Shown here in pieces: positions 12,782-63,949 of a stretch of DNA of 64,000 nt (within the stretch, counting starts at the first letter, position 1; each line of letters starts with the position of its first letter). The notes under the pieces are model-generated. The model did not search any database and was not told the DNA's origin. It saw nothing but the letters and a program-made list of their open reading frames with translations. Position numbers and translations under genes: made by a program. Origin of the DNA: Patescibacteria group bacterium (GTDB taxonomy: Bacteria; Patescibacteriota; Minisyncoccia; Phycocordibacterales; JAACPR01); NCBI GenBank assembly GCA_022711495.1, contig JAKLEX010000001.1, positions 436,882 to 500,881 on the forward strand, in the 5' to 3' direction.

Positions 12782-13720
12782 CTATTCCATCTTCAACCCG
12801 CGCAAGGCCACGACCCTCTCTTCAACTGGCGGATGCGTGCTGAAAATTTTATTCATGAGGCCAGCCTTCTTCCCTTCTTTGTAGTCAGGAATACCGTTTT
12901 TATCAAGATCACCGCCTAACGGCGAAGCAATGAACAAGTGCGCCGTGGCCCGATTCTGTGTCTGCAAACCAGCCCCATAACTGGAAATCTTTTCCAACGC
13001 GCTGGCCAACCCGTCCGGATAACGGGTAATTAGCGCACCGGTAGCATCAGCCAAATATTCCCTCTTGCGCGAAATCGCCAACTGAATGATTGTCGCTACG
13101 ATCGGCGATAAAATCGCCAGAACGATTCCGATCAAAAGTATCACCGCTCCGGCCTTGCCGTCATCACGATTGCGACTGCCTCGGAATTTTGACCTTAGAA
13201 AAATATCCGACAGCAAAGTTACAAACCCAACCAAAACCACCACGACCGTCTGCAACAAAATATCGCGATTACCAATATGCGACAATTCATGCGCCAACAC
13301 GCCTTCCAATTCCGAACGATCCAAAATTTTCAACAGACCGGTCGTCACAGCGATGGCGGCGTTCTCTTGATTGCGTCCGGTAGCAAAAGCATTCGGCGAT
13401 TCATCGTCAATAATATAGAGTCGTGGTTTTTGAATGCCGGCGGTAATACAAAGATTTTCCAGCAGACGATGGAGTTCCCGATAAGTATTTTCATCAGCCG
13501 GCCGGGCGTGACTAACGGCCAGCGCGATTTTATCCGATTTGTAATAACTAACGATATTCAGAACTAGGCTGAAGATTAACGCGATATATAAGATAGTAGA
13601 ATCGTTGTAGATATAGCTAAAAGTCCAGCCAATCAGAATTATCAGAACAAAAAACGCAATCATCAGAAACCATGTCCGAGTAACATTTTTCTCTTGTTCT
13701 GTATAAAGATTGGCCGCCAT
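12782..13720 (-). CDS. htpX: Zinc metalloprotease HtpX (M48)
   Basis: It has an HELSHIGNRD (HExxH) motif, N-terminal TM helices and the M48 architecture. Length is 312 aa. Confidence 0.85.
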   Translation of the reverse strand: MAANLYTEQEKNVTRTWFLMIAFFVLIILIGWTFSYIYNDSTILYIALIFSLVLNIVSYYKSDKIALAVSHARPADENTYRELHRLLENLCITAGIQKPRLYIIDDESPNAFATGRNQENAAIAVTTGLLKILDRSELEGVLAHELSHIGNRDILLQTVVVVLVGFVTLLSDIFLRSKFRGSRNRDDGKAGAVILLIGIVLAILSPIVATIIQLAISRKREYLADATGALITRYPDGLASALEKISSYGAGLQTQNRATAHLFIASPLGGDLDKNGIPDYKEGKKAGLMNKIFSTHPPVEERVVALRGLKME

Positions 13721-20526: not shown

Positions 20527-21207
20527 ATGAAGATATTAATTGTTGAAGATAATATTTCAATCAGAAATGTCCTGCGGATGGGACTGGAAGAGCTGTCCTA
20601 CGCGGTTGACGAGGCCGGAGATGGAGAAAGGGGTTCCTATCTGGCCAGAGTCAACAAGTACGACCTGATCATACTTGACGACATTCTGCCGAAGAAGCTG
20701 GGGAAGGTCGTTTGTGAAGAAATCAGACAAATCGGGGTTCACGCCCCGATTTTATTTTTATCAGACCGGGCGGATGTTAACACCAAAATTGACCTGCTCA
20801 ATTGCGGAGCGGACGATTGCTTGTCAAAACCGTTTTCGTTCGCTGAATTGCACGCTCGGGTGAAAAGTTTGTTGCGCCGACCGCATAAGATACAAGATAC
20901 AGTTATAAAAGAAGGCGTGGTTTCGTTGAACGTTGATACTCATGACGTCGTCCATCAGAACAAAAAGTTATACTTGACCCAAAAAGAATTTTCTCTACTG
21001 GAATTATTGATGAGAAATTCTGGGCGAATTGTAACTCGTTCAACGATTATGGAAAGTGTTTGGGATATAAATGCCGATCCTTTTTCCAACACCATTGAGA
21101 CGCACATCAGAAATTTGAGATCAAAATTAAGGGACAGAAACAAAACGCTGATACGAAATATTCCAGGGCGAGGATATAAGTTTCATTCTCTGGAATTACA
21201 GAGATAG
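20527..21207 (+). CDS. OmpR/PhoB-family response regulator (receiver plus winged helix). Orphan, with no adjacent kinase.
   Basis: The receiver runs MKILIVEDN...YDLIILDDILP, and the C-terminal winged-helix motifs include LTQKEFSLLELL and GYKF. Confidence 0.8.
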   Translation: MKILIVEDNISIRNVLRMGLEELSYAVDEAGDGERGSYLARVNKYDLIILDDILPKKLGKVVCEEIRQIGVHAPILFLSDRADVNTKIDLLNCGADDCLSKPFSFAELHARVKSLLRRPHKIQDTVIKEGVVSLNVDTHDVVHQNKKLYLTQKEFSLLELLMRNSGRIVTRSTIMESVWDINADPFSNTIETHIRNLRSKLRDRNKTLIRNIPGRGYKFHSLELQR

Positions 21208-23001
21208 TTGCTTCTCAAGTTTCTCGGCTTTTTTGCGATCGTTATCGGTCAGATATTTCTTTCGCAAACGAATGTCTTTCGGTGTTATTTCCAGATATTC
21301 GTCTCCGCGCATCATGCCCAGGGCCTTTTCCAAAGTCAGATCAAATGGCGGCGCCAAAAGAACCAGGCCGTCGGAACTGTGCGATCTGACATTGGTCAGA
21401 GCTTTGCCCTTGGTCGGATTTACGTACATGTCTTCCCCTTTTACCGTATAGCCGACAACCATTCCTTCATAAATCATAGAGCCCGGCTTTATATATAAAA
21501 CGCCACGTTCCTGCAAGTTTTCCAAGGCAAAAGCCAGAACTTTTCCGGTCGCCATAGATACCATTGAACCGTATTCGGTTTTCCTGATCTCGCCAGCCAT
21601 CGGTTTAAAAGCGCTGAAAACACTGGTCATAATTCCCTCGCCTTTCGTATCAACGACAAATTCGTTTCTGTAACCCAAAAGCCCGCGAGTTGGCACTTCA
21701 AAAGATAATTTGACTTGGTGATGAACAGTCTCCATGTGAGTTAAAAGACCTTTTCTGTTTCCCAATTTCTCAATGATAATTCCCGAGAATTCTTCTGGTG
21801 ACAAAACAGAAACTTCTTCAAAAGGTTCGTATTTTTCGCCGTTGATATTTTTTATAATAACTTCCGGTTGAGAGACAGCCAATTCAAAACCCTCTCGGCG
21901 CATATTTTCAATTAAAACACCTAAATGAAGTTCCCCGCGGCCGTAGACTTTGAATCGAGAGCCCTCGGTAAAATCAACGCGCAAACCGACATTAACTTCC
22001 AGTTCTTTTTCTAGTCTCTCGCGAATCTGACGAGAAGTTAGAAATCTTCCGACTTTTCCGGCAAACGGCGAATCGTTGATAAACATGTAAACAGACAAGG
22101 TCGGCTCGTCAACGGTAATGGCCGGCAAAACTGGCGAAGTTTCATCTTCAGCGATGGTTTGGCCAATATAGATTTCGGGCAAACCGGCGATCATGACAAT
22201 ATCTCCGGTCGTGGCCTCATCTTCTTCCTTCTTGTTCATACCTTCAAAGGTGAAAAGCTTGGCGATTTTCCCGGAAAAAATTTTGCCGGAGTTGTCTTTG
22301 GCAAATATCTGCTGTCCGTTTTTTATTTTTCCGCTATAAATTCTACAAATACCCATTCGACCTAAAAAATTATCGTAGGCCAAATTAAAGACCTGGGCTT
22401 TTAACTTGTTTTTGGCCTTAATCTCGTCCGATGCCGGTGGAACTTTTTTCAAAACCATATCAAGTATAGGCATCAGATCGGCAGATTCGTCCTTCAAGTT
22501 GTTTTTGGCGATTCCTTGTCGACCAACGGCATAAAGCGTCTCAAAATTCAGCTGTTCTTTCGTCGCGCCCAAATCAAAAAATAGCTCGTAGACCTGATCG
22601 TGGGACTTTTTGACGTTGGCGGCCGGTTTATCAATTTTATTTAAAATTAAAATCGGTTTTAGCCCCAATTCAAGAGATTTCTTGAGAACAAATTTAGTCT
22701 GTGGCATTGGCCCCTCGGCCGCGTCAACCACAAGCAAAACCGAATCAACGCTACGCAAAACACGCTCTACCTCGGAACCAAAATCGGCGTGGCCGGGAGT
22801 GTCAAGAATATTAATCTTCGTCCCCTTATAAAAAGTTGAGGTATTTTTAGAGTAAATGGTTATGCCCCGTTCTTTTTCAAGAGCGTTTGAATCCATGGAA
22901 ACGCCCTCTTCAATCATGCCGGTTTGACGCAAAATCATATCAGTCAAGGTCGTCTTGCCGTGATCAACGTGAGCTATTATCGCGATATTTCTAATCTCCA
23001 T
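21196..23001 (-). CDS. typA: Translational GTPase TypA/BipA
   Basis: It begins IRNIAIIAHVDHGKTTLTD, with DTPGHADFG and the TypA C-terminal domain. Length is 601 aa. Confidence 0.95.
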   Translation of the reverse strand: MEIRNIAIIAHVDHGKTTLTDMILRQTGMIEEGVSMDSNALEKERGITIYSKNTSTFYKGTKINILDTPGHADFGSEVERVLRSVDSVLLVVDAAEGPMPQTKFVLKKSLELGLKPILILNKIDKPAANVKKSHDQVYELFFDLGATKEQLNFETLYAVGRQGIAKNNLKDESADLMPILDMVLKKVPPASDEIKAKNKLKAQVFNLAYDNFLGRMGICRIYSGKIKNGQQIFAKDNSGKIFSGKIAKLFTFEGMNKKEEDEATTGDIVMIAGLPEIYIGQTIAEDETSPVLPAITVDEPTLSVYMFINDSPFAGKVGRFLTSRQIRERLEKELEVNVGLRVDFTEGSRFKVYGRGELHLGVLIENMRREGFELAVSQPEVIIKNINGEKYEPFEEVSVLSPEEFSGIIIEKLGNRKGLLTHMETVHHQVKLSFEVPTRGLLGYRNEFVVDTKGEGIMTSVFSAFKPMAGEIRKTEYGSMVSMATGKVLAFALENLQERGVLYIKPGSMIYEGMVVGYTVKGEDMYVNPTKGKALTNVRSHSSDGLVLLAPPFDLTLEKALGMMRGDEYLEITPKDIRLRKKYLTDNDRKKAEKLEKQLSL

Positions 23002-23534: not shown

Positions 23535-24038
23535 TTAGTTCGGACAGAGCTGCCCCTCGATGAGCAGGCAGTCGTGAGTCTCGATCGCCCGAGGCGATCG
23601 ACGAACCACGCGCGGACGCGCGAAGCGCTGTGCCCGCCAGTTGGGGTCGGCACGGTGGGTAACCAAGACACGTACCCGTCCCGACCGGTCCACACCCAGG
23701 GTCCGGCCGAAACAGCGCCGATGGCGCCGACTCGGGAAACTGATATCAATCGGTTGTTTGAGCGCGGGCGGTTTGGGCATCTCGGCCATTTCCACCGGCT
23801 CATCCTTGATGCCTGCCGCTAAGCGGGCATTTTTCATCAGGCGCCGATATCGGAACTGCGAACGCGCATAGATGCCGGCCAAAAAATCCAGGACTATAAA
23901 CACGGCGATTAAACCAGCGGAAGTTGCCGCAGAGATCCACGACCCTTCGCCGTCTGGAATGCCGGACACCACCCATCCAAAGATGGCCGCCACGAGAACC
24001 GCCAGAACAGATTCTACTAGACTTATTGAACCCTTCAC
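23535..24038 (-). CDS. Hypothetical membrane protein in a ~60% GC island. Two TM segments and an Arg-rich C-terminus.
   Basis: The RBS AAGGGAGG precedes the ATG. A terminator follows directly. GC is far above background, and overlapping ORFs in other frames are judged to be GC artefacts. Confidence 0.4.
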   Translation of the reverse strand: MKGSISLVESVLAVLVAAIFGWVVSGIPDGEGSWISAATSAGLIAVFIVLDFLAGIYARSQFRYRRLMKNARLAAGIKDEPVEMAEMPKPPALKQPIDISFPSRRHRRCFGRTLGVDRSGRVRVLVTHRADPNWRAQRFARPRVVRRSPRAIETHDCLLIEGQLCPN

Positions 24039-41847: not shown

Positions 41848-41907
41848 ATCTTAACTAATTTACCATTAACACGGCTTCATGTTAAATGATTGGCGCACTT
41901 CAAAAAA

Positions 41908-41952
41908 GTTTTCCAAAAATAAAGGCCCCGAAGCGTATAACGCTCGGGGCCT
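41908..41952 (-). terminator. Strong intrinsic terminator (GGCCCCGAGCG...CGCTTCGGGGCC plus TTTATTTTTGG on the minus strand)
   Basis: A perfect GC-rich stem followed by a T-tract, directly downstream of ORF 41969..42399. Confidence 0.6.
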
Positions 41953-41968
41953 TGTTGTGTTGAAGCGG

Positions 41969-42399
41969 CTAACTTTCGTCGGCGGTAATGGCAGCACCGG
42001 CCCGACCAGCCAGAGCGGACGGATGTGCCCGTCGGTCGCGTTGTTCCTGACATTTGGCGATCAGGTGTTGGCGCGTGGACCACAGATGAGCCAAGTTGCA
42101 TCGAGCAACAAATTCCTGCGCCGTAAGCGCCAGGCTTTTGTGCTGACACAATTCAAACTCGATGGTAATGCCCCGTGCCATATCGATCTGCTGATCGATT
42201 TCCGCGATCTGCTTGCGCAGAGCGCGAATGCCGAGAGCGCCCTTTTCGCCGGTATCGTGACGCTGAACCGAAGGCGAGACCAAGACCGCGCCAGGTTCAA
42301 CAGAAGTCATGGCGTAAAAGTATTCACCGCCGTAGCAGACTGTCGTCGGCAGAATTCCTGCCACCAACATCACCAGCACCAACATTCCGATCACCTTCA
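41969..42399 (-). CDS. GC-rich small secreted hypothetical protein (signal peptide)
   Basis: The RBS AAGGAGAAGGGGG precedes the ATG (MKVIGMLVLVMLVAG...). The gene lies in a ~60% GC patch, and longer ORFs in other frames are judged to be artefacts. Confidence 0.4.
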
Positions 42400-42561
42400 T
42401 TTCCCCCTTCTCCTTTTGTTTCTGTTTGGTTAACCTATTTAACTTCAATACTCTCAATGTGCAAAGTCTAGCGAGAAATTCTACAAGATCAGCTGAAAGC
42501 GTCAACTCCAACTGTTAAAGAAAAGTGGATAAGCTAAAAATAGCGCTAATTTCGGGTATAT

Positions 42562-57310: not shown

Positions 57311-57415
57311 ATTTTCTTGAAGATATTATACACAAAAGAAGTTTTGAAAGATAAAAACACCAAGAGAAAATAAAAGGCGCCTCCCGAAGAAAGCGCCCTG
57401 AAAAATCTACCGTTC

Positions 57416-57880
57416 CTACCATTTGAAGTCCGGCCAGTCTACGGGGGTAGACTGAATCTCTTCGTCGTAGAAGACTACGCAGAGAACGAGCGTTCCGTTC
57501 CCGATTTTCCTGATTCGGAAGAAGAACGTGGAAGAATGAAAAGCTCTCTGATAGAACTCCTCGATCGCCTTTTCGTCCAGATTATCCCGGCCGTAGTAGA
57601 GCTCCTTTTCGCTAACCGCATCATAGAACTCCACACTGGCCGTGGCGTTGACGAACCCGACCGTATCCGGCGCAATAGCCCGCGCTAGAATCTTGCCAAC
57701 ATCGTCAAGCCGAAAATCAAAACTCCGGGTCTGACCGTCAACATCGGTAATCTGGACACCGAAGTCCTTTGGCTGATCACCGACAATCAGATAGTCACAC
57801 AGCGAATCGTCTTCGTCCGGGTGGTACATGTAACCAACGACGGTTCCATCCACCGCGACGATCTGAATATACGGCTTCAT
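57416..57880 (-). CDS. Hypothetical protein (first gene of the GC-elevated island)
   Basis: 154-aa ORF, roughly 50% GC. Its upstream region carries GCGCGCCGTCTG-TTTGACAT-N17-TATAGT and a TGGAACTA box. Confidence 0.4.
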   Translation of the reverse strand: MKPYIQIVAVDGTVVGYMYHPDEDDSLCDYLIVGDQPKDFGVQITDVDGQTRSFDFRLDDVGKILARAIAPDTVGFVNATASVEFYDAVSEKELYYGRDNLDEKAIEEFYQRAFHSSTFFFRIRKIGNGTLVLCVVFYDEEIQSTPVDWPDFKW

Positions 57881-57924
57881 TCCGATCTCCTTTTGTTTTC
57901 TTGTTCAAGAACTTATCGCCAAAA

Positions 57925-58040
57925 CCTAACTGTCCGAACTATAGCAAAAAATCCTCTTAATGTCAAACAGACGGCGCGTTGCTACTTGAACAAAAAACAA
58001 TTTAAAATAAATTTCAAATGGGCCTGGAACTACTATTTTA
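57925..58040 (-). promoter_or_regulatory. Promoter region of gene 57416..57880, with a variant copy of the island motif
   Basis: The minus strand reads AGCAACGCGCCGTCTGTTTGACATTAAGAGGATTTTTTGCTATAGT. The TGGAACTA element lies about 45 bp further upstream. Confidence 0.45.
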
Positions 58041-58152
58041 AAAATTTAATCGGATCAAAGGTGGAGAGTGCTATAACAAGTTTGAGGTAAAAAAGAAAAG
58101 AGCTCGTAAGTTGTTACACTAACGAGCCCTTGTGCAGATGCGACACGTGCCC

Positions 58153-58869
58153 CTAGTTCTGCATAACGCGTGCCGCTTCTTCCATCCTGACGATTTCCGC
58201 CGGAGAGAATGGGGTGTTCGTATATATCCAGCAAATTCCCAGTTTTCTCTCGATCTCCAGCTTGTGCACGGCGTCCGATTTCGATTCGTCTACCGAACCG
58301 GGCTTACCGCGCCCGCACTTAGAACAATATTCCCCCATGGCGCCCGAGCCAGCCGCCCCGCCGTGGACCATGCCATTTTTATACTCGTGCTGACACTTGC
58401 CGGCACAAACATTGCAAATGGCCCACTCGCACTCCCGCAGACCGATCATCGGAGATCGGCACTGCTGACAAAGACCAAGTGAGATGACAAAAGCATCTTT
58501 TCCCTCGATCTTCGCCGCGCCCATAAAAACCGGTTGACATCCGCCAAAATAGACGGCATCTCTGATTCCGCCAACTTCAGCCTTGTCATCATTGCTGGTC
58601 CCCTGAATCGTCACACGAATCCCGCCGACCAACTCAGTCGAGTGGACAGTGACGCAACCCTTTGTTCTCGTACGCTTCCGAGGCTTAGAGCCGAAGTGAA
58701 GGAATATCTTACAGTATTTCCCTTCGTCACCGTCGTCCTGACGACCGCCATATCTGAACGTATCGCCGGGTTTAATAGTCGACATAAGGCGAGAGAATGT
58801 CTCGCGCTCCACTTCCGTAAAAGGAACCAAAACGAAAACCCTCTTCGCGTCGTCGCGGATTATCTTCAT
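58153..58869 (-). CDS. Hypothetical protein with a Cys-rich C-terminal region (multiple CxxC, possible Zn ribbons)
   Basis: CQQCRSP...CEWAICNVCAGKCQHE...CSKCGRG, at roughly 55% GC. Confidence 0.45.
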   Translation of the reverse strand: MKIIRDDAKRVFVLVPFTEVERETFSRLMSTIKPGDTFRYGGRQDDGDEGKYCKIFLHFGSKPRKRTRTKGCVTVHSTELVGGIRVTIQGTSNDDKAEVGGIRDAVYFGGCQPVFMGAAKIEGKDAFVISLGLCQQCRSPMIGLRECEWAICNVCAGKCQHEYKNGMVHGGAAGSGAMGEYCSKCGRGKPGSVDESKSDAVHKLEIERKLGICWIYTNTPFSPAEIVRMEEAARVMQN

Positions 58870-58934
58870 AGAACTTTTCTCCTTTCTAAGAACTCTTTTT
58901 TACTTTACCCGCAAACATTGCGGATTTCTAATAA

Positions 58935-59000
58935 GGCATAATAACACAATACAAAATTATGTCAAATTGTGCGAGTTCGTGGAAATTGTTGGAACTAGTC
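58935..59000 (-). promoter_or_regulatory. Island promoter/operator repeat, copy a
   Basis: The minus strand reads TAGTTCCAACAATTTCCACGAACTCGCACAATTTGACATAATTTTGTATTGTGTTATTAT, i.e. -35 TTGACA, N16, -10 TATTAT. Confidence 0.55.
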
Positions 59001-59693
59001 TTCAATAAATTCGCCCAGCTTCCCTTCGTCAATTTTAGTCTTTTCCCAATCAACGAGTGTAATTTTTGTAATTTGAGGACCATCGGGATTTTCAAAATCA
59101 ATATCGACAATCATATCTGCTAATTTAAATTTTCTTTCAAGACCGTGCTCCAAAAACACACTTTTAAGTTCCGCGACTTTTGATTCAACTTGCTGTCTCA
59201 AATTATTAATTTCTTCGTCAGAGAGCCTCTGCTTTAAATATTCTAAATCCTTGCCGACCAGCCGATAACCTTTTACTCTCTCCATGACAATCACGTGTCC
59301 TTCCTCAGATTCAACTTTTGCGATTGGTTCCGGCGCGAGTAAATTAAGTTTCCTCACAATTTGCATTACTTTATATTCATAGAAAGGATCTCTGGATTTA
59401 GAAATTTGACCTTTCTCAATATTTACTCTTTTAGCAACAACCTGTATTTGTTCGCCAGCTCCATTTACCCAAACAGGAAAATCAACGACCGCGGTTGGAT
59501 CTTCTCTAACGCGACCAGCACCGTCGATCTCAACATTGCCTTCTTTTATCTGGACCCCCTTTTCTTCAAAGTATTTAATTGGGTCGTCAGAAAAATCTTC
59601 GGGTATAAAATCCTTATAGCGTTCAGAAGTTTCTATTTTGCTCTGTTTCTTTTCAAATTTTGGCATTCCTTCCATATTCAAGAACATTATCAC
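58995..59693 (-). CDS. Hypothetical protein with a protein-kinase-like (RIO/Kdo-kinase-like) signature
   Basis: VVAKRV (VAIK-like Lys), a downstream Glu, a hinge VIVMERVKGY, and HGLERKFKLADMIVDIDF / ITLVDWEK resembling catalytic and DFG-like loops. Recall-based and low certainty. Confidence 0.35.
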   Translation of the reverse strand: MIMFLNMEGMPKFEKKQSKIETSERYKDFIPEDFSDDPIKYFEEKGVQIKEGNVEIDGAGRVREDPTAVVDFPVWVNGAGEQIQVVAKRVNIEKGQISKSRDPFYEYKVMQIVRKLNLLAPEPIAKVESEEGHVIVMERVKGYRLVGKDLEYLKQRLSDEEINNLRQQVESKVAELKSVFLEHGLERKFKLADMIVDIDFENPDGPQITKITLVDWEKTKIDEGKLGEFIED

Positions 59694-59739
59694 ATTTGTG
59701 TGAACCAGAAAACTTCTTATTTAAGCTGTGAATCAAAGG

Positions 59740-59792
59740 GCTTGATCGGAGCACTTTCGTGGACGGTGGCGGAATTGAAATTACAAACCAAC
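59740..59792 (-). promoter_or_regulatory. Island promoter/operator repeat, copy d
   Basis: The minus strand reads TTTCAATTCCGCCACCGTCCACGAAAGTGCTCC. Confidence 0.45.
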
Positions 59793-60170
59793 AGCTTTTG
59801 AAATGAGAAAGAAGACAACGCCACCGATCCCCCAAATTGGGATGGTCAAGAGACTAGTATAACCAGAAATGCTGAATTCATCCTTGTGATATCTCCAAAG
59901 TTTGTAATTAATTGCTTTGTGATATGCGAGTCCTAATCCATACTCCAAAATAAAACCGATCAAAGAGCTAATGACATAAAACGTGAGTAACTTCGGACCA
60001 AAATATTTGGTCAGATAAATAGTCGATATTATGGGTATGATAATTAACGCAAAATACTCTCGCCAATAAAATTTCGTTGTTCTTCTGCCATATAGATAAG
60101 CAAGAAAAAAGCCCAAGAGTGATAAAAGAAAAAATCCTGAGGCTACAATAATTAAAAAATCTTGTGTCAT
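59781..60170 (-). CDS. Hypothetical 4-TM membrane protein
   Basis: 129-aa ORF with four hydrophobic helices. Confidence 0.45.
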   Translation of the reverse strand: MTQDFLIIVASGFFLLSLLGFFLAYLYGRRTTKFYWREYFALIIIPIISTIYLTKYFGPKLLTFYVISSLIGFILEYGLGLAYHKAINYKLWRYHKDEFSISGYTSLLTIPIWGIGGVVFFLISKAVGL

Positions 60171-60189
60171 ATTACTTCAATATTATCAT

Positions 60190-60235
60190 AACCGTCGTTT
60201 TCGTGGACAGTGTCGGGACCAGATTGAAAAAATGA
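60190..60235 (-). promoter_or_regulatory. Island promoter/operator repeat, copy e
   Basis: The minus strand reads TTTCAATCTGGTCCCGACACTGTCCACGAAAACGACGG. Confidence 0.45.
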
Positions 60236-60291
60236 AATAAAAAATCGTCCACACAGATTGCTCCATGTGGACGATTGTAAGGAATCTTGAA

Positions 60292-61170
60292 TCAGTCAAG
60301 CTTGGCCAGTAAGCTCTTCCAGTCCTTGACCCGGATTTCGCCAGCGTATGTGATGTCCCGATTCGACAGAACCACCCGTGCCCCACCAATGTTGAAGGGT
60401 TGGGACCCAAAGGCATCGATACAAGCCGAAGCCGGATGGTCGTGGTGACCGGCGTCAGTCAGCAGGCCGATCTTCTCCGCCCCGTTCTTCAATGCCAGAA
60501 GCATCAGAAACGGAGTAATCGGCATTTCCTGCCCGACGAAACGCTGACCCTTCGGACCTTGTGCCTTATCACTGGCCAGCACAAACAAGTCCATAAGAAC
60601 AATCTTGAAACGTCCTTGTTGAATAAGGGCTTCAGCTTGGTCGTAGGTTTGAACCGTCACAACGTTGAAGTTTTCTGACAACTGGTCACGCGCCGCTCGA
60701 CGGTGAATCGCGCTGTCATCAAACACCAGAATGTCGGGATGGCTATCCTTTCCAACACAGGTCTTGATCGCCAAGACAACTTCCTGCGATGCATAGTCTT
60801 GGATTGGTTCTGCGTATTGATGAACGGCGACCTTGTAATGAGATTCCATCAATAAAGCAAAAGCCCTGGCTCCCGGATTGCGCTGAAGAACTCGGCGGAC
60901 AATTTGAGCCATCGATTCCTGCGCGTCTTCACCAGACTCGCCCATTGGATAATTCCACGCATCAACGATGACGATCTCGGCATTTGAGCACTCTTCAATA
61001 AAGCGCTCTTCGGAATCCCCCTGAAGCGCGCCCTGACCAAAGGACACAAAATCAAGTTCAGCTCCGGACTCCCTCTGAAGTTCGTGAAAGATGACACCGC
61101 GATCTCCATAGAATGGATCCTCGGGACCCTTACCGACACAACAATACAACACGACCTTTACCTTACTCAT
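60292..61170 (-). CDS. Hypothetical protein with a central receiver (REC)-like domain
   Basis: ILVFDDSAIHRRAARDQLSENFNVVTVQTYDQAEALIQQGRFKIVLMDLFV matches the response-regulator receiver pattern (DD...D). The flanking domains are unassigned. Roughly 55% GC. Confidence 0.45.
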   Translation of the reverse strand: MSKVKVVLYCCVGKGPEDPFYGDRGVIFHELQRESGAELDFVSFGQGALQGDSEERFIEECSNAEIVIVDAWNYPMGESGEDAQESMAQIVRRVLQRNPGARAFALLMESHYKVAVHQYAEPIQDYASQEVVLAIKTCVGKDSHPDILVFDDSAIHRRAARDQLSENFNVVTVQTYDQAEALIQQGRFKIVLMDLFVLASDKAQGPKGQRFVGQEMPITPFLMLLALKNGAEKIGLLTDAGHHDHPASACIDAFGSQPFNIGGARVVLSNRDITYAGEIRVKDWKSLLAKLD

Positions 61171-61214
61171 CTGTCTATCCTTTCTTTTAAAGAGCTCACC
61201 TTCTCTAGACTACG

Positions 61215-61282
61215 CACAATATAACATAATACAAAATTATGTCAAACTGCGCGCTTCCGTGGACGAGATTGAAACTAGGATA
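61215..61282 (-). promoter_or_regulatory. Island promoter/operator repeat, copy b
   Basis: The minus strand reads TAGTTTCAATCTCGTCCACGGAAGCGCGCAGTTTGACATAATTTTGTATTATGTTATATT, i.e. -35 TTGACA, N16, -10 TATATT. Confidence 0.55.
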
Positions 61283-61307
61283 TTAAAGAGCGACAATGCC
61301 GTCGGTT

Positions 61308-62534
61308 TTATATGTTTCCCCTGACCGGTTCTTTAATTCTATTTAGTGCAAGTAAACTAATAAGTAATAAAACACCTAGAGAAAATACGCTAGACCTATA
61401 ACCATTAACAGTTTCTCCTACCACAATTAGGACGGTACTCCATACTGCTGGTCCAATAAAAGTAGCAAATCTTTCAGCTAAAACTAGGTAGCTATATGAT
61501 GTGGCTCTCAAATTTTCCGGGGACAATTGTCCAACGAGCGAACGAGAAATCGAAAAAATCGGTCCAAATAAAATTCCAGCAAATAAAAATATCGGAATGG
61601 CCGCACCGAAATTCGTCGTTGCGGCCATTGAAAACAACAAGAGACACCAAATAACAATTATTATTTTGAGGATTTTGACATTTCCAATTTTATCAGAGAC
61701 CTTGCCCAAAATTAATGCGCCAAAAGCTGATAAAATTAATATACCTGCGGTTAAAAGAGATTTGGTTGTATCTGTGGCCTTGAATACCGTCTCTAAATAC
61801 AACGGAAAATTATTTGCAAAAGTTAAGAGTGAGTCACTAAACAAAAAATATGCGATCAATATAAATGCAAGTGACTTGTGTGAGAAAACAGATTTAAATA
61901 AAGATAGCACTGTTGGTCTATCTTGGTTCTCTACGACTTCTATGACGACTTTTTCCTCGCGATATAAAAAGACCATCGGTATTGATAATAAACCAAACAA
62001 GATCGTCGCTGGTAACAAAGCCTGAGCACGTCCGGGGTCACCAAACAAAGTTATTCCACTAACAAAGGGAATGGTCAGTAAAATGCCCAAAACCTGACCT
62101 ATACTATTAGCTCCAAAGCCAATGCCAGAAACCCATGAACAATTTTCTCTTGTCGATAAGTCATTTAATATTGGTGTGTAATAAAGGAAACTAACCAAAT
62201 ATGCATAAGTCGAAAAGATAAATAGCGTAGTTGCCAATATCTCTTGACCATTTGTTAACATCATCAATAAAGCCAGAATTATGAACCCAATAAAAGAAAG
62301 CGCGGTCCAGGTTCTTAGACCAACGATCTTTTTCTTCGATGTGTCTATTACTTTCCCTATGTATGGGGCGGTCAGAAAGAATAAAATGGAAGATAAAATA
62401 AGGGCCAGATTATACCACCATGCCGGTTTGCCCTGATCTATGACCAACCATTGAGAAAAGTAAAAAAGATAGGCCATCTGCACAAACGAATTCGCAAAAT
62501 CGTACAGTGCCCAATATGCTATCTTCTTTTTCAT
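61308..62534 (-). CDS. MFS family transporter
   Basis: About 12 TM segments. Start taken at MKKKIAYWALYDF (ATG 62534), so the promoter repeat lies upstream rather than inside the CDS. Confidence 0.6.
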   Translation of the reverse strand: MKKKIAYWALYDFANSFVQMAYLFYFSQWLVIDQGKPAWWYNLALILSSILFFLTAPYIGKVIDTSKKKIVGLRTWTALSFIGFIILALLMMLTNGQEILATTLFIFSTYAYLVSFLYYTPILNDLSTRENCSWVSGIGFGANSIGQVLGILLTIPFVSGITLFGDPGRAQALLPATILFGLLSIPMVFLYREEKVVIEVVENQDRPTVLSLFKSVFSHKSLAFILIAYFLFSDSLLTFANNFPLYLETVFKATDTTKSLLTAGILILSAFGALILGKVSDKIGNVKILKIIIVIWCLLLFSMAATTNFGAAIPIFLFAGILFGPIFSISRSLVGQLSPENLRATSYSYLVLAERFATFIGPAVWSTVLIVVGETVNGYRSSVFSLGVLLLISLLALNRIKEPVRGNI

Positions 62535-62574
62535 GATGGAGATTTTATCACCCCATGCTACGTTAACAAAGTTC

Positions 62575-62622
62575 ATTATGTTCATCTGCGCGCTTTCGTG
62601 GATGGGGTTGGAACTAATTTAT
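62575..62622 (-). promoter_or_regulatory. Island promoter/operator repeat, copy c
   Basis: The minus strand reads TAGTTCCAACCCCATCCACGAAAGCGCGCAGATGAAC, followed by TGATAAAAT, an extended -10. Confidence 0.5.
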
Positions 62623-63188
62623 GGAAGAAGAAGGTTCGTCTCGGTTTGTAATTTCTCAAAATTATCTGATTCTGTAAAATGTCCTTGCTCTTTCTCTATA
62701 AATACTTGCGCTCCTAATTTATCTTTAAAGAAATCTGCTTGGTCCAATGGAACATATGGGTCATTATCCGAAAATATAGTTATTACTTTCCCTACTCGCT
62801 TTTTTACTACATCAAAATCAATAGGAGTTTCCATCCAGGGTTTAGCAATTTCCACAACCTCTTCACCTTCCTCTTCAATAGTCTGCATATCTAATTTCAT
62901 CCAAGGGGCAATGAGAATAACTTTTGAAATAATAATATTCGATTCCAGATTTTCTATAAAGCGAAGTACCCCCTGACAACCAATACTGTGGCCTATTATT
63001 AAATCAAAATCTTTATCAAAAACCGACTTTATTTTCTCAATCCAATCTGAAATTACAGGAACCGCGGGATTAGGCATTACTGGAATAGTTACTTCATGGC
63101 CAAGAGTTTCTAATTCTCTTTTTAGGTAATTATGAAGAGGCTCTTTAGGGTTGCCGTCCCAGCCGTGGATTATTAAAGCTTTTTTCAT
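62619..63188 (-). CDS. Alpha/beta-hydrolase (YdeN/RBBP9-like serine hydrolase)
   Basis: ALIIHGWDGNPKEP..., the nucleophile elbow GHSIGC, and a late D/H consistent with a catalytic triad. Confidence 0.6.
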   Translation of the reverse strand: MKKALIIHGWDGNPKEPLHNYLKRELETLGHEVTIPVMPNPAVPVISDWIEKIKSVFDKDFDLIIGHSIGCQGVLRFIENLESNIIISKVILIAPWMKLDMQTIEEEGEEVVEIAKPWMETPIDFDVVKKRVGKVITIFSDNDPYVPLDQADFFKDKLGAQVFIEKEQGHFTESDNFEKLQTETNLLLP

Positions 63189-63235
63189 ATACAAAATTCT
63201 ACCACAGTTTTAAATCCCACATCGCTGTAAAACAA

Positions 63236-63272
63236 AAGTCGCCGACTCGTTCCGAGCCGACCCCTTTGTTTT
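63236..63272 (-). terminator. Putative intrinsic terminator downstream of tRNA-Asp
   Basis: The minus strand has GTCGGCTCGGAACGAGTCGGCGAC followed by TTTTGTTTT. Confidence 0.4.
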
Positions 63273-63275
63273 ATG

Positions 63276-63349
63276 CGCGAGTGATGGGACTTGAACCCAC
63301 GACCTACCGCGTGACAGGCGGTCGCTCTAACCAGCTGAGCTACACCCGC
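63276..63349 (-). tRNA. tRNA-Asp, anticodon GTC
   Basis: The reverse complement begins GCGGGTGTAGCTCAGCTGGTTAGAGC, with anticodon loop CTGTCAC and T-arm GGTTCAAGTCC. Confidence 0.85.
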
Positions 63350-63445: not shown

Positions 63446-63949
63446 TTAGGCACTGACGGCTTCCAGACTTCGGAAGAATTGGTTTTTCTTCCCTTTCTTC
63501 CCGGCCCGAATCTGGCGATCATGCTTGTCGCATACTTTTGTCGGATCGTTTGACGTCCGACAAATGCAGCATGGCTCCTTCTGCTTGGCCTTGGCGCCAG
63601 CGGTCTCGGATTTCTCCGTCTCCGGATCTCCGGGCAGAGCCATCGGCAATCGCCGTGTCCGAGCCTGAAGCGGCTTATGAAACAGCTTCCGGTTCTCTTC
63701 GCTGGACAGCTCGGCTCGGCATTCCGCACACAGACTTGGAGAGTTCCCGCCCCCGCATCGCCAACACTTCGCTTCCTCGCGCGGAGCCCATTGGCTCGGC
63801 GTGACGAGCGAAGTTTCCGGTTGCGGCGGCAAAGACTCTGTCTTCGCGGGTTCCACCGGTTGCTCGGAAATCTCGGCCAAACTTCTCGGAGCCTCGTCAA
63901 CACAAAGCCCCAAATTCATCTGCCCGGCGGCATCATGATGATGCTTCAT
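63446..63949 (-). CDS. GC-rich Cys-rich hypothetical protein (two CxxC-containing clusters; possible zinc ribbon)
   Basis: The RBS AAAGGAGAATGCGATG precedes the start. The protein contains CWRCGGG...CAEC and CCICRT...CDKHD, at roughly 60% GC. A terminator-like hairpin lies at about 63396-63425. Confidence 0.45.
   Translation of the reverse strand: MKHHHDAAGQMNLGLCVDEAPRSLAEISEQPVEPAKTESLPPQPETSLVTPSQWAPREEAKCWRCGGGNSPSLCAECRAELSSEENRKLFHKPLQARTRRLPMALPGDPETEKSETAGAKAKQKEPCCICRTSNDPTKVCDKHDRQIRAGKKGKKNQFFRSLEAVSA

What the first reader, a model, noticed from the sequence alone, without database searches (positions are those of the whole stretch)
57416..62622. GC-elevated island of six independently promoted genes sharing a ~60-bp promoter/operator repeat
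Six consecutive minus-strand genes are each preceded by its own copy of a conserved module. They encode a hypothetical protein (154 aa), a Cys-rich protein, a kinase-like protein, a 4-TM protein, a REC-domain protein and an MFS transporter.

The module, read in the coding direction, is TAGTT(C/T)CAA - short spacer - TCCACG(A/G)AAGCGCGCAG - TTGACAT - N16 - TATTAT/TATATT.
- Copies a (58935-59000) and b (61215-61282) are about 75% identical over 60 bp.
- Copies c, d and e keep the TCCACGAAAG core.
- The copy upstream of gene 57416 keeps GCGCGC...TTGACAT plus a displaced TGGAACTA box.

The genes run at 50-55% GC against a ~38% background. This pattern suggests a co-regulated, probably horizontally acquired regulon under a dedicated DNA-binding regulator, with kinase-like and receiver-domain proteins encoded inside it. 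The protein combination matches no module I know.
Basis: seen in the sequence. Interest (0 to 1): 0.75.

Follow-up and report, generated by a model that had tools for sequence, protein, structure and literature searches.

The report
tRNA-Asp-anchored gene cassette array
The repeated "promoter/operator" is mostly a 30-base boundary sequence that follows each gene in a string of independently acquired gene cassettes downstream of a tRNA-Asp gene in a Paceibacteria (CPR) genome; this integron-like layout appears undescribed, and no recombinase for it was found.

Summary
The repeat is real, but it is neither island-specific nor an operator. Five minus-strand copies of a 30-nt box, plus one disrupted copy, lie between seven consecutive genes from tRNA-Asp (63275-63349) to 57374. 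The family consensus is TAGTTCCAACAACGTCCACGAAAGCGCGCA.

- **Significance:** four copies match a consensus taken from other genomes at 22/30 or better, against 0.005 expected.
- **GC content:** only three of the six genes are GC-rich. Only those three have strong TTGACA-type promoters.
- **Copies a and b:** they look alike because they are box plus the same 5' module of two GC-rich cassettes.
- **Other genomes:** the same box forms same-strand arrays just downstream of tRNA-Asp in five other Paceibacteria genomes, with unrelated gene content.
- **Position:** it abuts the stop codon of the preceding gene, and its last bases (CGCGC) equal the tRNA's 3' end.
- **Flanks:** sequences that follow the tRNA recur after boxes, and true tRNA-Asp 3' duplicates occur in relatives' arrays.
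- **Mobility:** a Fic cassette shared by two arrays is 84% identical in DNA against about 69% for core genes. Its homology stops exactly at the box's 3' end.

Best reading: a cassette-end recombination site, here fixed and decaying. No recombinase was found.

The parts
63275..63349 (-). tRNA-Asp(GTC). The array starts at its 3' end, ...GTTCAAGTCCCATCACTCGCGC|A (proposed primary attachment site).
63196..63261 (-). Right flank of the tRNA: terminator hairpin (63241-63261), then the extended -10 TGTGGTAGAAT (63196-63206) 7 nt before the ATG. It is homologous to the modules that follow boxes in relatives.
62619..63188 (-). Cassette 1 gene: Ser_hydrolase (PF06821), low GC.
62587..62616 (-). Box r1, TAGTTCCAACCCCATCCACGAAAGCGCGCA (27/30). 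It starts 2 nt after the hydrolase stop codon.
61308..62585 (-). Cassette 2 gene: MFS transporter (PF07690/ATG22), low GC. The likely true start is the ATG at 62534, preceded by GGTGATAAAAT (62542-62552) plus 7 nt. The first 17 codons of the long ORF are the shared promoter module.
61248..61277 (-). Box r2, TAGTTTCAATCTCGTCCACGGAAGCGCGCA (25/30).
61218..61245 (-). Promoter of cassette 3 (TTGACA-16-TATATT, TG-extended). This 5' module is shared with cassette 6.
60292..61170 (-). Cassette 3 gene: 292-aa GC-rich protein with a tandem receiver-like (flavodoxin-like) fold and no output domain.
60243..60276 (-). Intrinsic terminator of cassette 3, upstream of its box.
60192..60221 (-). Box r3, degenerate: TGGTCCCGACACTGTCCACGAAAACGACGG (20/30).
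59781..60170 (-). Cassette 4 gene: 129-aa 4-TM protein (PF06541, ABC_trans_CmpB), low GC.
59748..59777 (-). Box r4, CAATTCCGCCACCGTCCACGAAAGTGCTCC (22/30). It starts 3 nt after the 4-TM stop codon.
58995..59675 (-). Cassette 5 gene: 226-aa protein of an uncharacterised family, weakly protein-kinase-like, low GC. Its TAG stop codon is the first three bases of box r5.
58968..58997 (-). Box r5, TAGTTCCAACAATTTCCACGAACTCGCACA (25/30).
58938..58965 (-). Promoter of cassette 6 (TTGACA-16-TATTAT, TG-extended).
58153..58869 (-). Cassette 6 gene: 238-aa Cys-rich GC-rich orphan. It has no match in Pfam, PHROGs, NCBIfam or PADLOC.
57960..58032 (-). Disrupted sixth box: TAGTTCCA (58025-58032) and GCGCCGTCTGTTTGACAT (57960-57977), separated by about 47 nt of AT-rich sequence.
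   Evidence: D13
57938..57966 (-). Promoter of cassette 7 (TTGACA-17-TATAGT).
57416..57880 (-). Cassette 7 gene: 154-aa GC-rich orphan with no family match.
57374..57399 (-). Terminator that ends the array. The conserved pseudopilin-MurI-Alr genes follow.

Best explanation
Window 57374-63349 (minus strand) is a seven-cassette array anchored on the 3' end of tRNA-Asp in a Candidatus Paceibacterota chromosome.

**Layout.** Each cassette is a short 5' expression module (promoter, sometimes preceded by a terminator), then one ORF, then a 30-nt unstructured box (TAGTTCCAAC-AACG-TCCACGAAAG-CGCGCA).

**Proposed role of the box (inferred).**
- The box is the cassette-end recombination site. The tRNA-Asp 3' end, which ends in the same CGCGC(A), is the primary site.
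- A trans-acting site-specific recombinase, not encoded in the array, inserts circular cassettes by crossing over at the 3' edge of the box or tRNA.
- New cassettes therefore accumulate next to the tRNA. Each box stays with the gene upstream of it, and each promoter with the gene downstream.

The 60-bp "promoter/operator" is a composite. It joins the box of one cassette to the 5' module of the next. That module happens to be the same family in the two GC-rich cassettes (copies a and b).

**State in this genome.** The array looks fixed and decaying. Boxes carry 3-10 mismatches, one is disrupted, and no polymorphism was seen.

**Shown versus inferred.** Shown: the anatomy, the cross-genome arrays, the shared flanks and the cassette exchange with a boundary at the box. 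Inferred: that the mechanism is site-specific recombination, and the direction of insertion.
For: 1. **Real and clustered.** The box is statistically real and confined to the array.
2. **Sharp edges.** Conservation across 27 copies from 11 loci rises at T1 of TAG and stops at A30. Neither flank is conserved.
3. **Arrays in six genomes.** The window, L034, L028, L064, L066 and L068/L071 share the synteny LigA-GatC-GatA-335aa-...-tRNA-Asp (tRNA-Met genes and a small Cys-rich ORF also seen in most). In each, 3-7 boxes follow the tRNA on its strand (30/30 same orientation). Gene content is different: GNAT, RelB/RelE, Fic, 2'-5' RNA ligase, many orphans.
4. **Interchangeable flanks.** The sequence following the tRNA recurs after boxes, with the junction right after CGCGC(A).
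   - L034: the tRNA flank matches copies B and C over about 75 nt.
   - L066: the tRNA flank matches the copy at 12937.
   - L068: the tRNA flank matches its own boxes and the L058 box.
   - Window: the tRNA flank matches that of L028 copy 1.
5. **Duplicated tRNA ends.** True duplicates of the tRNA-Asp 3' end lie inside relatives' arrays (L064 12562, L066 12274, L028 4937, L055 1569). A partial tRNA-Asp 3' half heads a box-containing insertion between mraY and ftsW in L058.
6. **Exchanged Fic cassette.** It is shared by L064 and L068 at different array positions.
   - DNA identity is 83% over 1051 nt (84% within the ORF) and protein identity 83%. Core genes are 43-64% identical in protein and about 69% in DNA.
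   - Homology ends exactly at the 3' end of its box, which carries the same odd variant in both genomes. It begins 10 nt or less after the upstream box in L068.
7. **Orientation-independent.** Boxes flank reverse-oriented cassettes (L034 copies D/E, L064 19649).
8. **Next to the stop codon.** The box abuts or supplies the upstream stop codon in 18 of 28 copies.
Against: - No integrase or recombinase gene was found in any array, in its 10-kb flanks, or among the 29 window ORFs scanned. The rest of the genome could not be searched.
- The box has no dyad symmetry or hairpin of the kind tyrosine or serine recombinase core sites or attC sites normally show.
- There is no within-species cassette polymorphism. 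Eleven contigs of this species are identical. Twenty-four contigs of the L068 species differ only by an IS256-like insertion.
- No window cassette was found in another array.
- In about 40% of copies the box sits a fixed 67-77 nt before a leaderless ATG, inside a portable intergenic module. This also fits a promoter-associated role.
- The box contains a 10-11-bp direct repeat (GTTCCAAC / CGTCCACG) typical of winged-helix regulator sites.
Confidence: 0.6

Rival explanations
1. Promoter-associated regulatory box. The 30-nt box is the binding site of a conserved transcription factor, for example an OmpR-type response regulator recognising the direct repeat GTTCCAAC-N2-CGTCCACG. Alternatively it is an UP-like element belonging to a portable box-plus-promoter module, and so co-regulates accessory genes.
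For: - In 12 of 30 scorable copies the next ATG lies 67-77 nt after the box, within an alignable module that ends in TGTGGTAGAAT-N7-ATG.
- In window copies r2 and r5, and in L017 and L056, a promoter follows the box directly.
- The box has two half-sites one helical turn apart (sequence inspection).
- An OmpR-family regulator is encoded at 20527-21207.
Against: - The same promoter module follows tRNA-Asp itself, with the tRNA 3' end in place of the box.
- A terminator separates the box from the next gene in 13 of 36 copies, and the distance to the ATG ranges from 1 to 286 nt.
- L034 copy D is followed by a convergent gene.
- In the Fic cassette the box variant travels with the upstream gene, not the downstream one.
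- Near-perfect conservation of 30 nt with razor-sharp edges is unusual for an operator.
- L063 has the same synteny but no boxes.
Confidence: 0.15
2. 3'-UTR RNA element. The box is transcribed as the tail of each upstream mRNA, between stop codon and terminator. There it acts at the RNA level in stability, processing or localisation, perhaps mimicking the tRNA-Asp 3' trailer context for an RNase or an RNA-binding protein.
For: - The box begins at or within 20 nt of the stop codon in 18 of 28 copies. It is frequently followed by a terminator 30-70 nt downstream.
- It travels with the upstream gene.
- It occupies the same place as the tRNA 3' end in paralogous intergenic modules.
Against: - It is unstructured (z-scores +0.3 to +1.6).
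- Some copies are not downstream of a co-oriented gene (L034 copy E, L064 19649).
- Some lie after the upstream gene's own terminator (window r3, L034 copy C).
- This reading does not explain the duplicated tRNA-Asp 3' ends or the variable gene content at one locus.
Confidence: 0.12
3. Passive homology anchors. The boxes and adjoining modules are only conserved intergenic paralogs of the tRNA-Asp downstream region. Cassettes are swapped by natural transformation plus RecA-dependent or illegitimate recombination between them, with no dedicated recombinase. This resembles Neisseria minimal mobile elements.
For: - No recombinase was found.
- The array is embedded in a type IV pilin / PilD cluster in a lineage thought to depend on DNA uptake.
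- Box plus module gives about 100 nt of homology in some arrays.
Against: - The right-hand breakpoint of the shared Fic cassette lies at the last bases of the box. The flanks beyond it are completely unrelated, so 6 nt or less of shared sequence remains for homologous exchange.
- Exact tRNA 3'-end duplications are the classic footprint of site-specific integration.
- Box sequence is 30/30 identical across genomes whose core proteins are only 42-64% identical, which implies selection on every position.
Confidence: 0.1

Closest known systems
Chromosomal integrons (IntI / attI / attC cassette arrays)
   Same: - A unidirectional array of mostly single-gene cassettes.
- Each cassette ends in a conserved site that abuts or overlaps the ORF stop codon.
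- Cargo is typical of such arrays: TA pairs, GNAT, orphans.
- Content differs completely between relatives at one fixed locus.
- The cassette boundary lies at the edge of the repeat.
   Different: - No intI was found next to the array.
- The primary site is a tRNA-Asp 3' end rather than an attI.
- The 30-nt box is unstructured and non-palindromic, unlike 57-141-nt attC hairpins.
- Cassettes carry their own promoters and terminators instead of relying on a common Pc promoter.
tRNA-gene integration hot spots with tandem accretion, and integrase-less cis-mobilizable elements (CIMEs)
   Same: - Anchored at the 3' end of a tRNA gene.
- Direct repeats in the tRNA's orientation.
- Duplicated tRNA 3' ends in relatives' arrays.
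- Units lack their own integrase, as in CIMEs.
- The literature on accretion at tDNAs was retrieved, for example PMC4891358 and PMC5704250. The CIME comparison rests on my own knowledge.
   Different: - Units are 0.4-1.4 kb single genes rather than 10-100-kb islands.
- The repeat is not a copy of the tRNA end. It is a distinct, conserved 30-mer sharing only the terminal CGCGC(A) and loose similarity (GTTC..AA..GTCC).
- No integrase lies at the tRNA-proximal end.
Xer-dependent pdif modules / IMEX elements
   Same: Small gene modules, including TA systems, bounded by short conserved recombination sites and moved by a recombinase encoded elsewhere in the genome.
   Different: - pdif sites are 28-bp 11-6-11 dyads in alternating orientation.
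- The boxes lack dyad symmetry and all point the same way.
- The locus is a tRNA gene, not dif or a plasmid.
Shared-operator regulons
   Same: A conserved sequence recurs in front of several consecutive, separately promoted genes.
   Different: The sequence is tied to the end of the preceding gene and to the tRNA 3' end, not to the promoters. It recurs with unrelated genes in other genomes.

Membership tests
Integron | intI (tyrosine recombinase) gene adjacent to the array. | tested here: not met
   No Phage_integrase or recombinase domain in the arrays or their 10-kb flanks in six genomes (precomputed Pfam), nor among 29 window ORFs. The whole genome was not searchable.
Integron | attC sites: 57-141-nt imperfect palindromes (R''-L''/L'-R') that fold as single-stranded hairpins. 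| tested here: not met
   Box plus flanks fold no better than shuffles as ssDNA (z +0.3 to +1.6 for 7 copies). Conservation is limited to 30 nt.
Integron | Array of same-orientation cassettes whose content varies between relatives, with boundaries at the repeat. | tested here: met
   for the arrays. The Fic cassette boundary lies at the box's 3' end.
Integron | Promoterless cassettes expressed from a common Pc promoter. | tested here: not met
   Each cassette has its own promoter-like element, and several have terminators. No transcript data are available.
tRNA-targeting genomic island / tandem accretion | Insertion at the 3' end of a tRNA gene. | tested here: met
   The array starts at tRNA-Asp in the window and in five other genomes.
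tRNA-targeting genomic island / tandem accretion | Flanking direct repeats that are copies of the tRNA 3' end. | tested here: inconclusive
   In the window, no second copy of the tRNA end exists at 3 mismatches or fewer. The boxes share only CGCGC(A) and loose similarity. In relatives, true duplicates are present inside arrays.
tRNA-targeting genomic island / tandem accretion | Island-encoded integrase next to the tRNA. | tested here: not met
   The first gene after the tRNA is a Ser hydrolase in the window, and a GNAT, a 612-aa protein and others in relatives.
Shared-operator regulon | Site at a constant position relative to each regulated promoter. | tested here: not met
   Box-to-ATG distance is 1-286 nt. 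A terminator intervenes in 13 of 36 copies. One copy is followed by a convergent gene.
Shared-operator regulon | Site specific to a functionally coherent gene set, with a cognate regulator. | tested here: not met
   The same box separates unrelated genes in other genomes. The only regulator-like product, the 292-aa tandem REC-like protein, has no DNA-binding domain.
REP/BIME/MITE-type dispersed repeats | Palindromic units dispersed through intergenic regions genome-wide. | tested here: not met
   No hairpin. In about 78 kb of this genome all copies lie in the array; the one 20/30 hit elsewhere is at the chance level.
Xer/pdif modules | 28-bp 11-6-11 dyad sites in alternating orientation. | tested here: not met
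   No dyad in the box (sequence inspection). All 30 boxes are in the same orientation.

The most novel reading that the evidence does not exclude
A lineage of Paceibacteria (CPR) has an integron-like gene-capture system of a new type. The 3' end of tRNA-Asp serves as the attI equivalent. A 30-nt unstructured box serves as the attC equivalent, with crossover at its CGCGC 3' edge. Cassettes bring their own, often leaderless, promoters. The recombinase is encoded elsewhere and belongs to an unrecognised or unexpected family. The window holds a fossilised seven-cassette example.
Probability: 0.4. Interest if true: 0.85.

Novelty: new variant of a known kind. Interest (0 to 1): 0.62.

Why it matters
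CPR/Patescibacteria have tiny genomes, and how they gain accessory genes is poorly understood. A tRNA-anchored array of self-expressed single-gene cassettes, bounded by a short non-hairpin site, would be a compact gene-capture device distinct from integrons. It would explain where orphan, GC-deviant genes sit in these genomes. It would also give a searchable 30-nt signature for finding accessory genes, and the missing recombinase, in thousands of MAGs. For annotation of this window, the six genes should not be read as one functional module or regulon.

Tried and rejected
- **attC/REP-like hairpin:** rejected; no structure.
- **CRISPR-like repeat, DNA-uptake sequence, Ter or parS sites:** rejected by spacing and by restriction to the array (reasoning).
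- **DGR IMH element at ORF 3' ends:** rejected; nothing upstream of the box is conserved, so there is no VR/TR.
- **dif-like reading of the a/b right flank** (ACATAAT-TTTGT-ATTATGT resembles dif arms):
  - The palindrome is broken in copy a.
  - There are only two copies.
  - GC skew shows no switch across the window.
  - It is treated as a promoter.
- **Phage origin:** 0 matches to the box core in viral contigs, and no informative PHROG or PADLOC hits.
- **Within-species cassette polymorphism:** none found. In the L068 species there is only an IS256-like insertion.
- **Homologs of the Cys-rich ORF next to the tRNA:** only the protein itself.
- **Exact look-up of the 232-aa ORF:** not on record. 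The database calls the 226-aa form.
- **Single-sequence AlphaFold of the kinase-like protein:** pLDDT 41, unusable.
- **Rfam:** nothing but tRNAs and RNase P.
- **Literature:** four full-text searches found no description of such arrays in CPR.
- **Metagenome pattern scan:** only 6 short contigs.
- **Genome-collection scan:** did not include this species, so the genome-wide box distribution in this organism is untested beyond about 78 kb.

Full report
**Source and context.** The window is a chromosome segment of an uncultivated Candidatus Paceibacterota (CPR) bacterium.
- Proteins from it occur identically on 11 metagenome or MAG contigs up to 554 kb, and NCBI names them 'Candidatus Paceibacterota bacterium'.
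- The window carries housekeeping genes, seven tRNAs and RNase P RNA.
- Mean GC is 42%.

- Reading the minus strand and running the repeat finder show a shared element in every intergenic gap from 62.6 to 58.0 kb.
- A 30-nt consensus taken from other genomes (TAGTTCCAACAACGTCCACGAAAGCGCGCA) was scanned against the window.
  - Five positions match at 20/30 or better, against 0.24 expected.
  - Four positions match at 22/30 or better, against 0.005 expected.
  - All are on the minus strand between 58968 and 62616.
- The sixth 'copy', upstream of 57416, is a disrupted box.
- Copies a and b are 79% identical over 58 nt. The extra about 28 nt beyond the box (TTGACATAATTTTGTATTRTGTTAT) occurs only in these two.
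- The 'GC-elevated island' is really three GC-rich genes interleaved with three low-GC genes.
  - GC-rich (52-53% GC, GC3 0.56-0.65): 57416-57880, 58153-58869 and 60292-61170.
  - Low-GC: 35-38%.
- Strong TTGACA-N16/17-TATAYT promoters (11/12 matches) precede only the three GC-rich genes.

**The element is not island-specific.**
- A pattern scan of species-representative genomes and of metagenomes found the same 30-mer, often with 0-1 mismatches, in intergenic DNA of other CPR MAGs.
- None was found in viral contigs.
- Aligning 27 copies in register shows conservation that starts abruptly at the T of TAG and ends at position 30. Neither flank is conserved.
- As single-stranded DNA, box plus flanks fold no better than shuffled sequence.

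**Where the boxes sit.**
- In L034 (7 copies) and L028 (3 copies) the boxes form an array immediately downstream of tRNA-Asp(GTC), on the tRNA's strand.
- The same holds in the window. tRNA-Asp lies at 63275-63349.
- Orthologs of the conserved 335-aa gene upstream were used to fetch more relatives.
- The synteny LigA-GatC-GatA-335aa-...-tRNA-Asp is conserved (with a type IV pilin/PilD cluster further upstream where the flank was fetched, and tRNA-Met genes plus a small ORF before tRNA-Asp in most). Further box arrays follow the tRNA in L064 (7), L066 (4) and L068/L071 (4 or more). L063 has none.
- All 30 boxes point the same way as the tRNA.
- The genes between boxes are unrelated from genome to genome: GNAT, RelB/RelE, Fic, 2'-5' RNA ligase, CopG, many orphans.

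**Geometry argues against an operator.**
- The box begins within -3 to +20 nt of the upstream stop codon in 18 of 28 scorable copies.
- Its TAG is the stop codon of the window's kinase-like gene and of two L034 genes.
- The distance to the next ATG ranges from 1 to 286 nt.
- In 13 of 36 copies a terminator hairpin lies between box and next gene.
- Boxes also flank reverse-oriented genes (L034 copies D/E around a 208-aa gene; L064 19649 next to a reversed GNAT).

**Link to the tRNA.**
- The tRNA gene ends ...GTTCAAGTCCCATCACTCGCGC|A, and the box ends ...GTCCACGAAAGCGCGC|A.
- What follows the tRNA recurs after boxes, with the junction exactly at that point.
  - In L034, about 75 nt are shared among the tRNA flank and copies B and C.
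  - In L066 the tRNA and the copy at 12937 share their following sequence. In L068 the tRNA flank matches that of its own boxes.
  - The L068 tRNA flank is nearly identical to the flank of the L058 box. The window's tRNA flank resembles that of L028 copy 1.
- A multiple alignment shows one portable intergenic module. The box or the tRNA end occupies its 5' position. Its 3' end is TGTGGTAGAAT-N7-ATG, implying leaderless mRNAs.
- True duplicates of the tRNA-Asp 3' end lie inside relatives' arrays.
- A partial tRNA-Asp 3' half heads a box-containing insertion between mraY and ftsW in L058.
- These are classic footprints of site-specific integration into a tRNA gene.

**Evidence that cassettes move as units ending in the box.**
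- A Fic gene occurs in both the L064 and L068 arrays, at different positions and with different neighbours.
- DNA identity is 83% over 1051 nt (84% within the ORF) and protein identity 83%. By comparison GatA, LigA and PilD are 61-64% identical in protein (about 69% in DNA), and the 335-aa protein is 43% identical.
- The homology ends exactly at the 3' end of the box downstream of Fic. Both boxes carry the same unusual variant (TAGTCCCAAC...TCCG...CCGCGC), and the sequences are unrelated thereafter.
- The homology starts 10 nt or less after the upstream box in L068.
- A RelB/YafQ pair and a 291/323-aa gene are also shared between arrays, at different positions.

**Model.** Cassette = 5' expression module + ORF(s) + box.
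- Insertion is by crossover between a box and the tRNA-Asp 3' end (or another box) at CGCGC|.
- In the window this gives seven cassettes: hydrolase; MFS; 292-aa; 4-TM; kinase-like; 238-aa; 154-aa.
- The array ends at the terminator 57374-57399, before the conserved pseudopilin-MurI-Alr genes.
The two best copies are similar because the 292-aa and 238-aa cassettes share the same 5' module.
- The window's boxes are degenerate (3-10 mismatches, one disrupted). Eleven independent contigs show the same arrangement. The array therefore appears fixed and decaying here.

**Weak points.**
- No recombinase was found in or near any array, or among 29 window ORFs.
- The box lacks the dyad symmetry of usual core sites.
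- No within-species cassette polymorphism was seen.
- No window cassette recurs in another array.
- The frequent fixed spacing to a leaderless start, and an internal repeat of about 10 bp, keep a promoter-associated role alive. Site-specific recombination is therefore inferred, not shown. I give it 0.6.

**The proteins.**
- The 292-aa protein has few homologs, all in Paceibacterota, in unrelated contexts and without boxes. The gene is also GC-rich relative to those hosts: 51% against 40%.
- Its AlphaFold model (pLDDT 79) is two flavodoxin-like domains. The best PDB matches are tandem-receiver proteins (3luf, E 4.7e-5). The second domain keeps DD...D...T, and Pfam Response_reg matches below threshold.
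- The 'kinase-like' protein belongs to an uncharacterised family of 81 representative clusters.
  - A family profile hits only Ser/Thr kinases in the PDB, but at E 0.14.
  - Single family members touch Pkinase (4e-4) and APH (4e-3).
  - This is suggestive only.
- The 154-aa and 238-aa proteins have no matches in four libraries.
- Nothing links the six products functionally.

**Comparison with known systems.** The architecture works like an integron array or like tandem accretion of integrase-less elements at a tDNA. It fails the defining tests of both.
- There is no intI, no attC hairpin and no Pc-driven promoterless cassettes.
- The repeats are not tRNA copies, and no island integrase is present.
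- Four literature searches found no description of such arrays in CPR.
- I class it as a new variant of a known kind, with moderate-to-high interest. The mechanism rests on comparative evidence mostly from relatives rather than from this window.

Noticed in passing
L064:12400-12582; L066:12158-12293; L028:4786-4956; L055 near 1569; window about 63212-63226 (only the first 15 nt, acagcgatgtgggat): A GC-rich noncoding element of about 135-180 nt lies just after the tRNA-Asp terminator or, in L028 and L055, after a box terminator. It ends in a duplicate of the tRNA-Asp 3' end. Its 5' end (GTGAGTGAGGGAC) pairs with that 3' end. The RNAalifold consensus has 42 pairs, 10 with compensatory changes, but from only 3 sequences. 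There is no Rfam match.
   Followed up: partly
window 63446-63949 (-): A GC-rich (58%) 167-aa ORF with two CxxC...C zinc-ribbon-like motifs lies immediately upstream of tRNA-Asp. Similar small Cys-rich ORFs occupy the same slot in L034, L063, L064 and L066. The homolog search returned only the protein itself.
   Followed up: partly
window 63186-63206, 62532-62552, 59673-59693; L034, L064 and L066 arrays: A recurrent extended -10 element, TG(T/G)G(G/A)TA(G/T)AAT, sits 7-9 nt before an ATGAAAAA start. This implies that leaderless mRNAs are common in this lineage. The three GC-rich cassettes instead have long leaders with AGGA-type ribosome-binding sites.
   Followed up: partly
window 61308-62585 (-): The MFS ORF is probably called too long, both in the ORF list (425 aa) and in the database (422 aa). 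Its first 17 codons align with a promoter module found in front of unrelated genes in L034. The likely start is the ATG at 62534.
   Followed up: partly
window 61221-61245 and 58941-58965 (-): The shared 5' module of the two GC-rich cassettes contains the inverted repeat ACATAAT-TTTGT-ATTATGT, which resembles dif/Xer-site arms. The repeat is broken in the 58.9-kb copy. A related GTTTGAYATAATTT follows two boxes in marine contig L056.
   Followed up: no
window 23535-24038 (-), 41879-42511 (both strands): Further GC-rich patches (50-52% GC) hold ORFs with no Pfam match. They resemble the GC-rich orphans of the array, but no box or shared promoter is nearby.
   Followed up: no
L058:6660-8430 (same as L016): An accessory insertion lies between mraY and ftsW. 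It consists of a partial tRNA-Asp 3' half, a 128-aa gene, a perfect box, a terminator, a degenerate box, a 130-aa membrane protein and a GNAT. This shows that boxes also occur away from the tRNA-Asp locus.
   Followed up: partly
L068:14339-15565 versus L071:7236-7439: An IS256-family transposase (PF00872) is present in some contigs of one species and absent in others. It sits right after a box module inside the array.
   Followed up: no
window 60292-61170 (-), alignment A2: The 292-aa family has an invariant HHDHPASAC motif inside its second receiver-like domain. Its function is unknown.
   Followed up: no
window 20527-23001: An OmpR-family response regulator (REC + Trans_reg_C) lies next to a convergent 601-aa ORF. 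It is the only obvious winged-helix regulator seen in the window.
   Followed up: no
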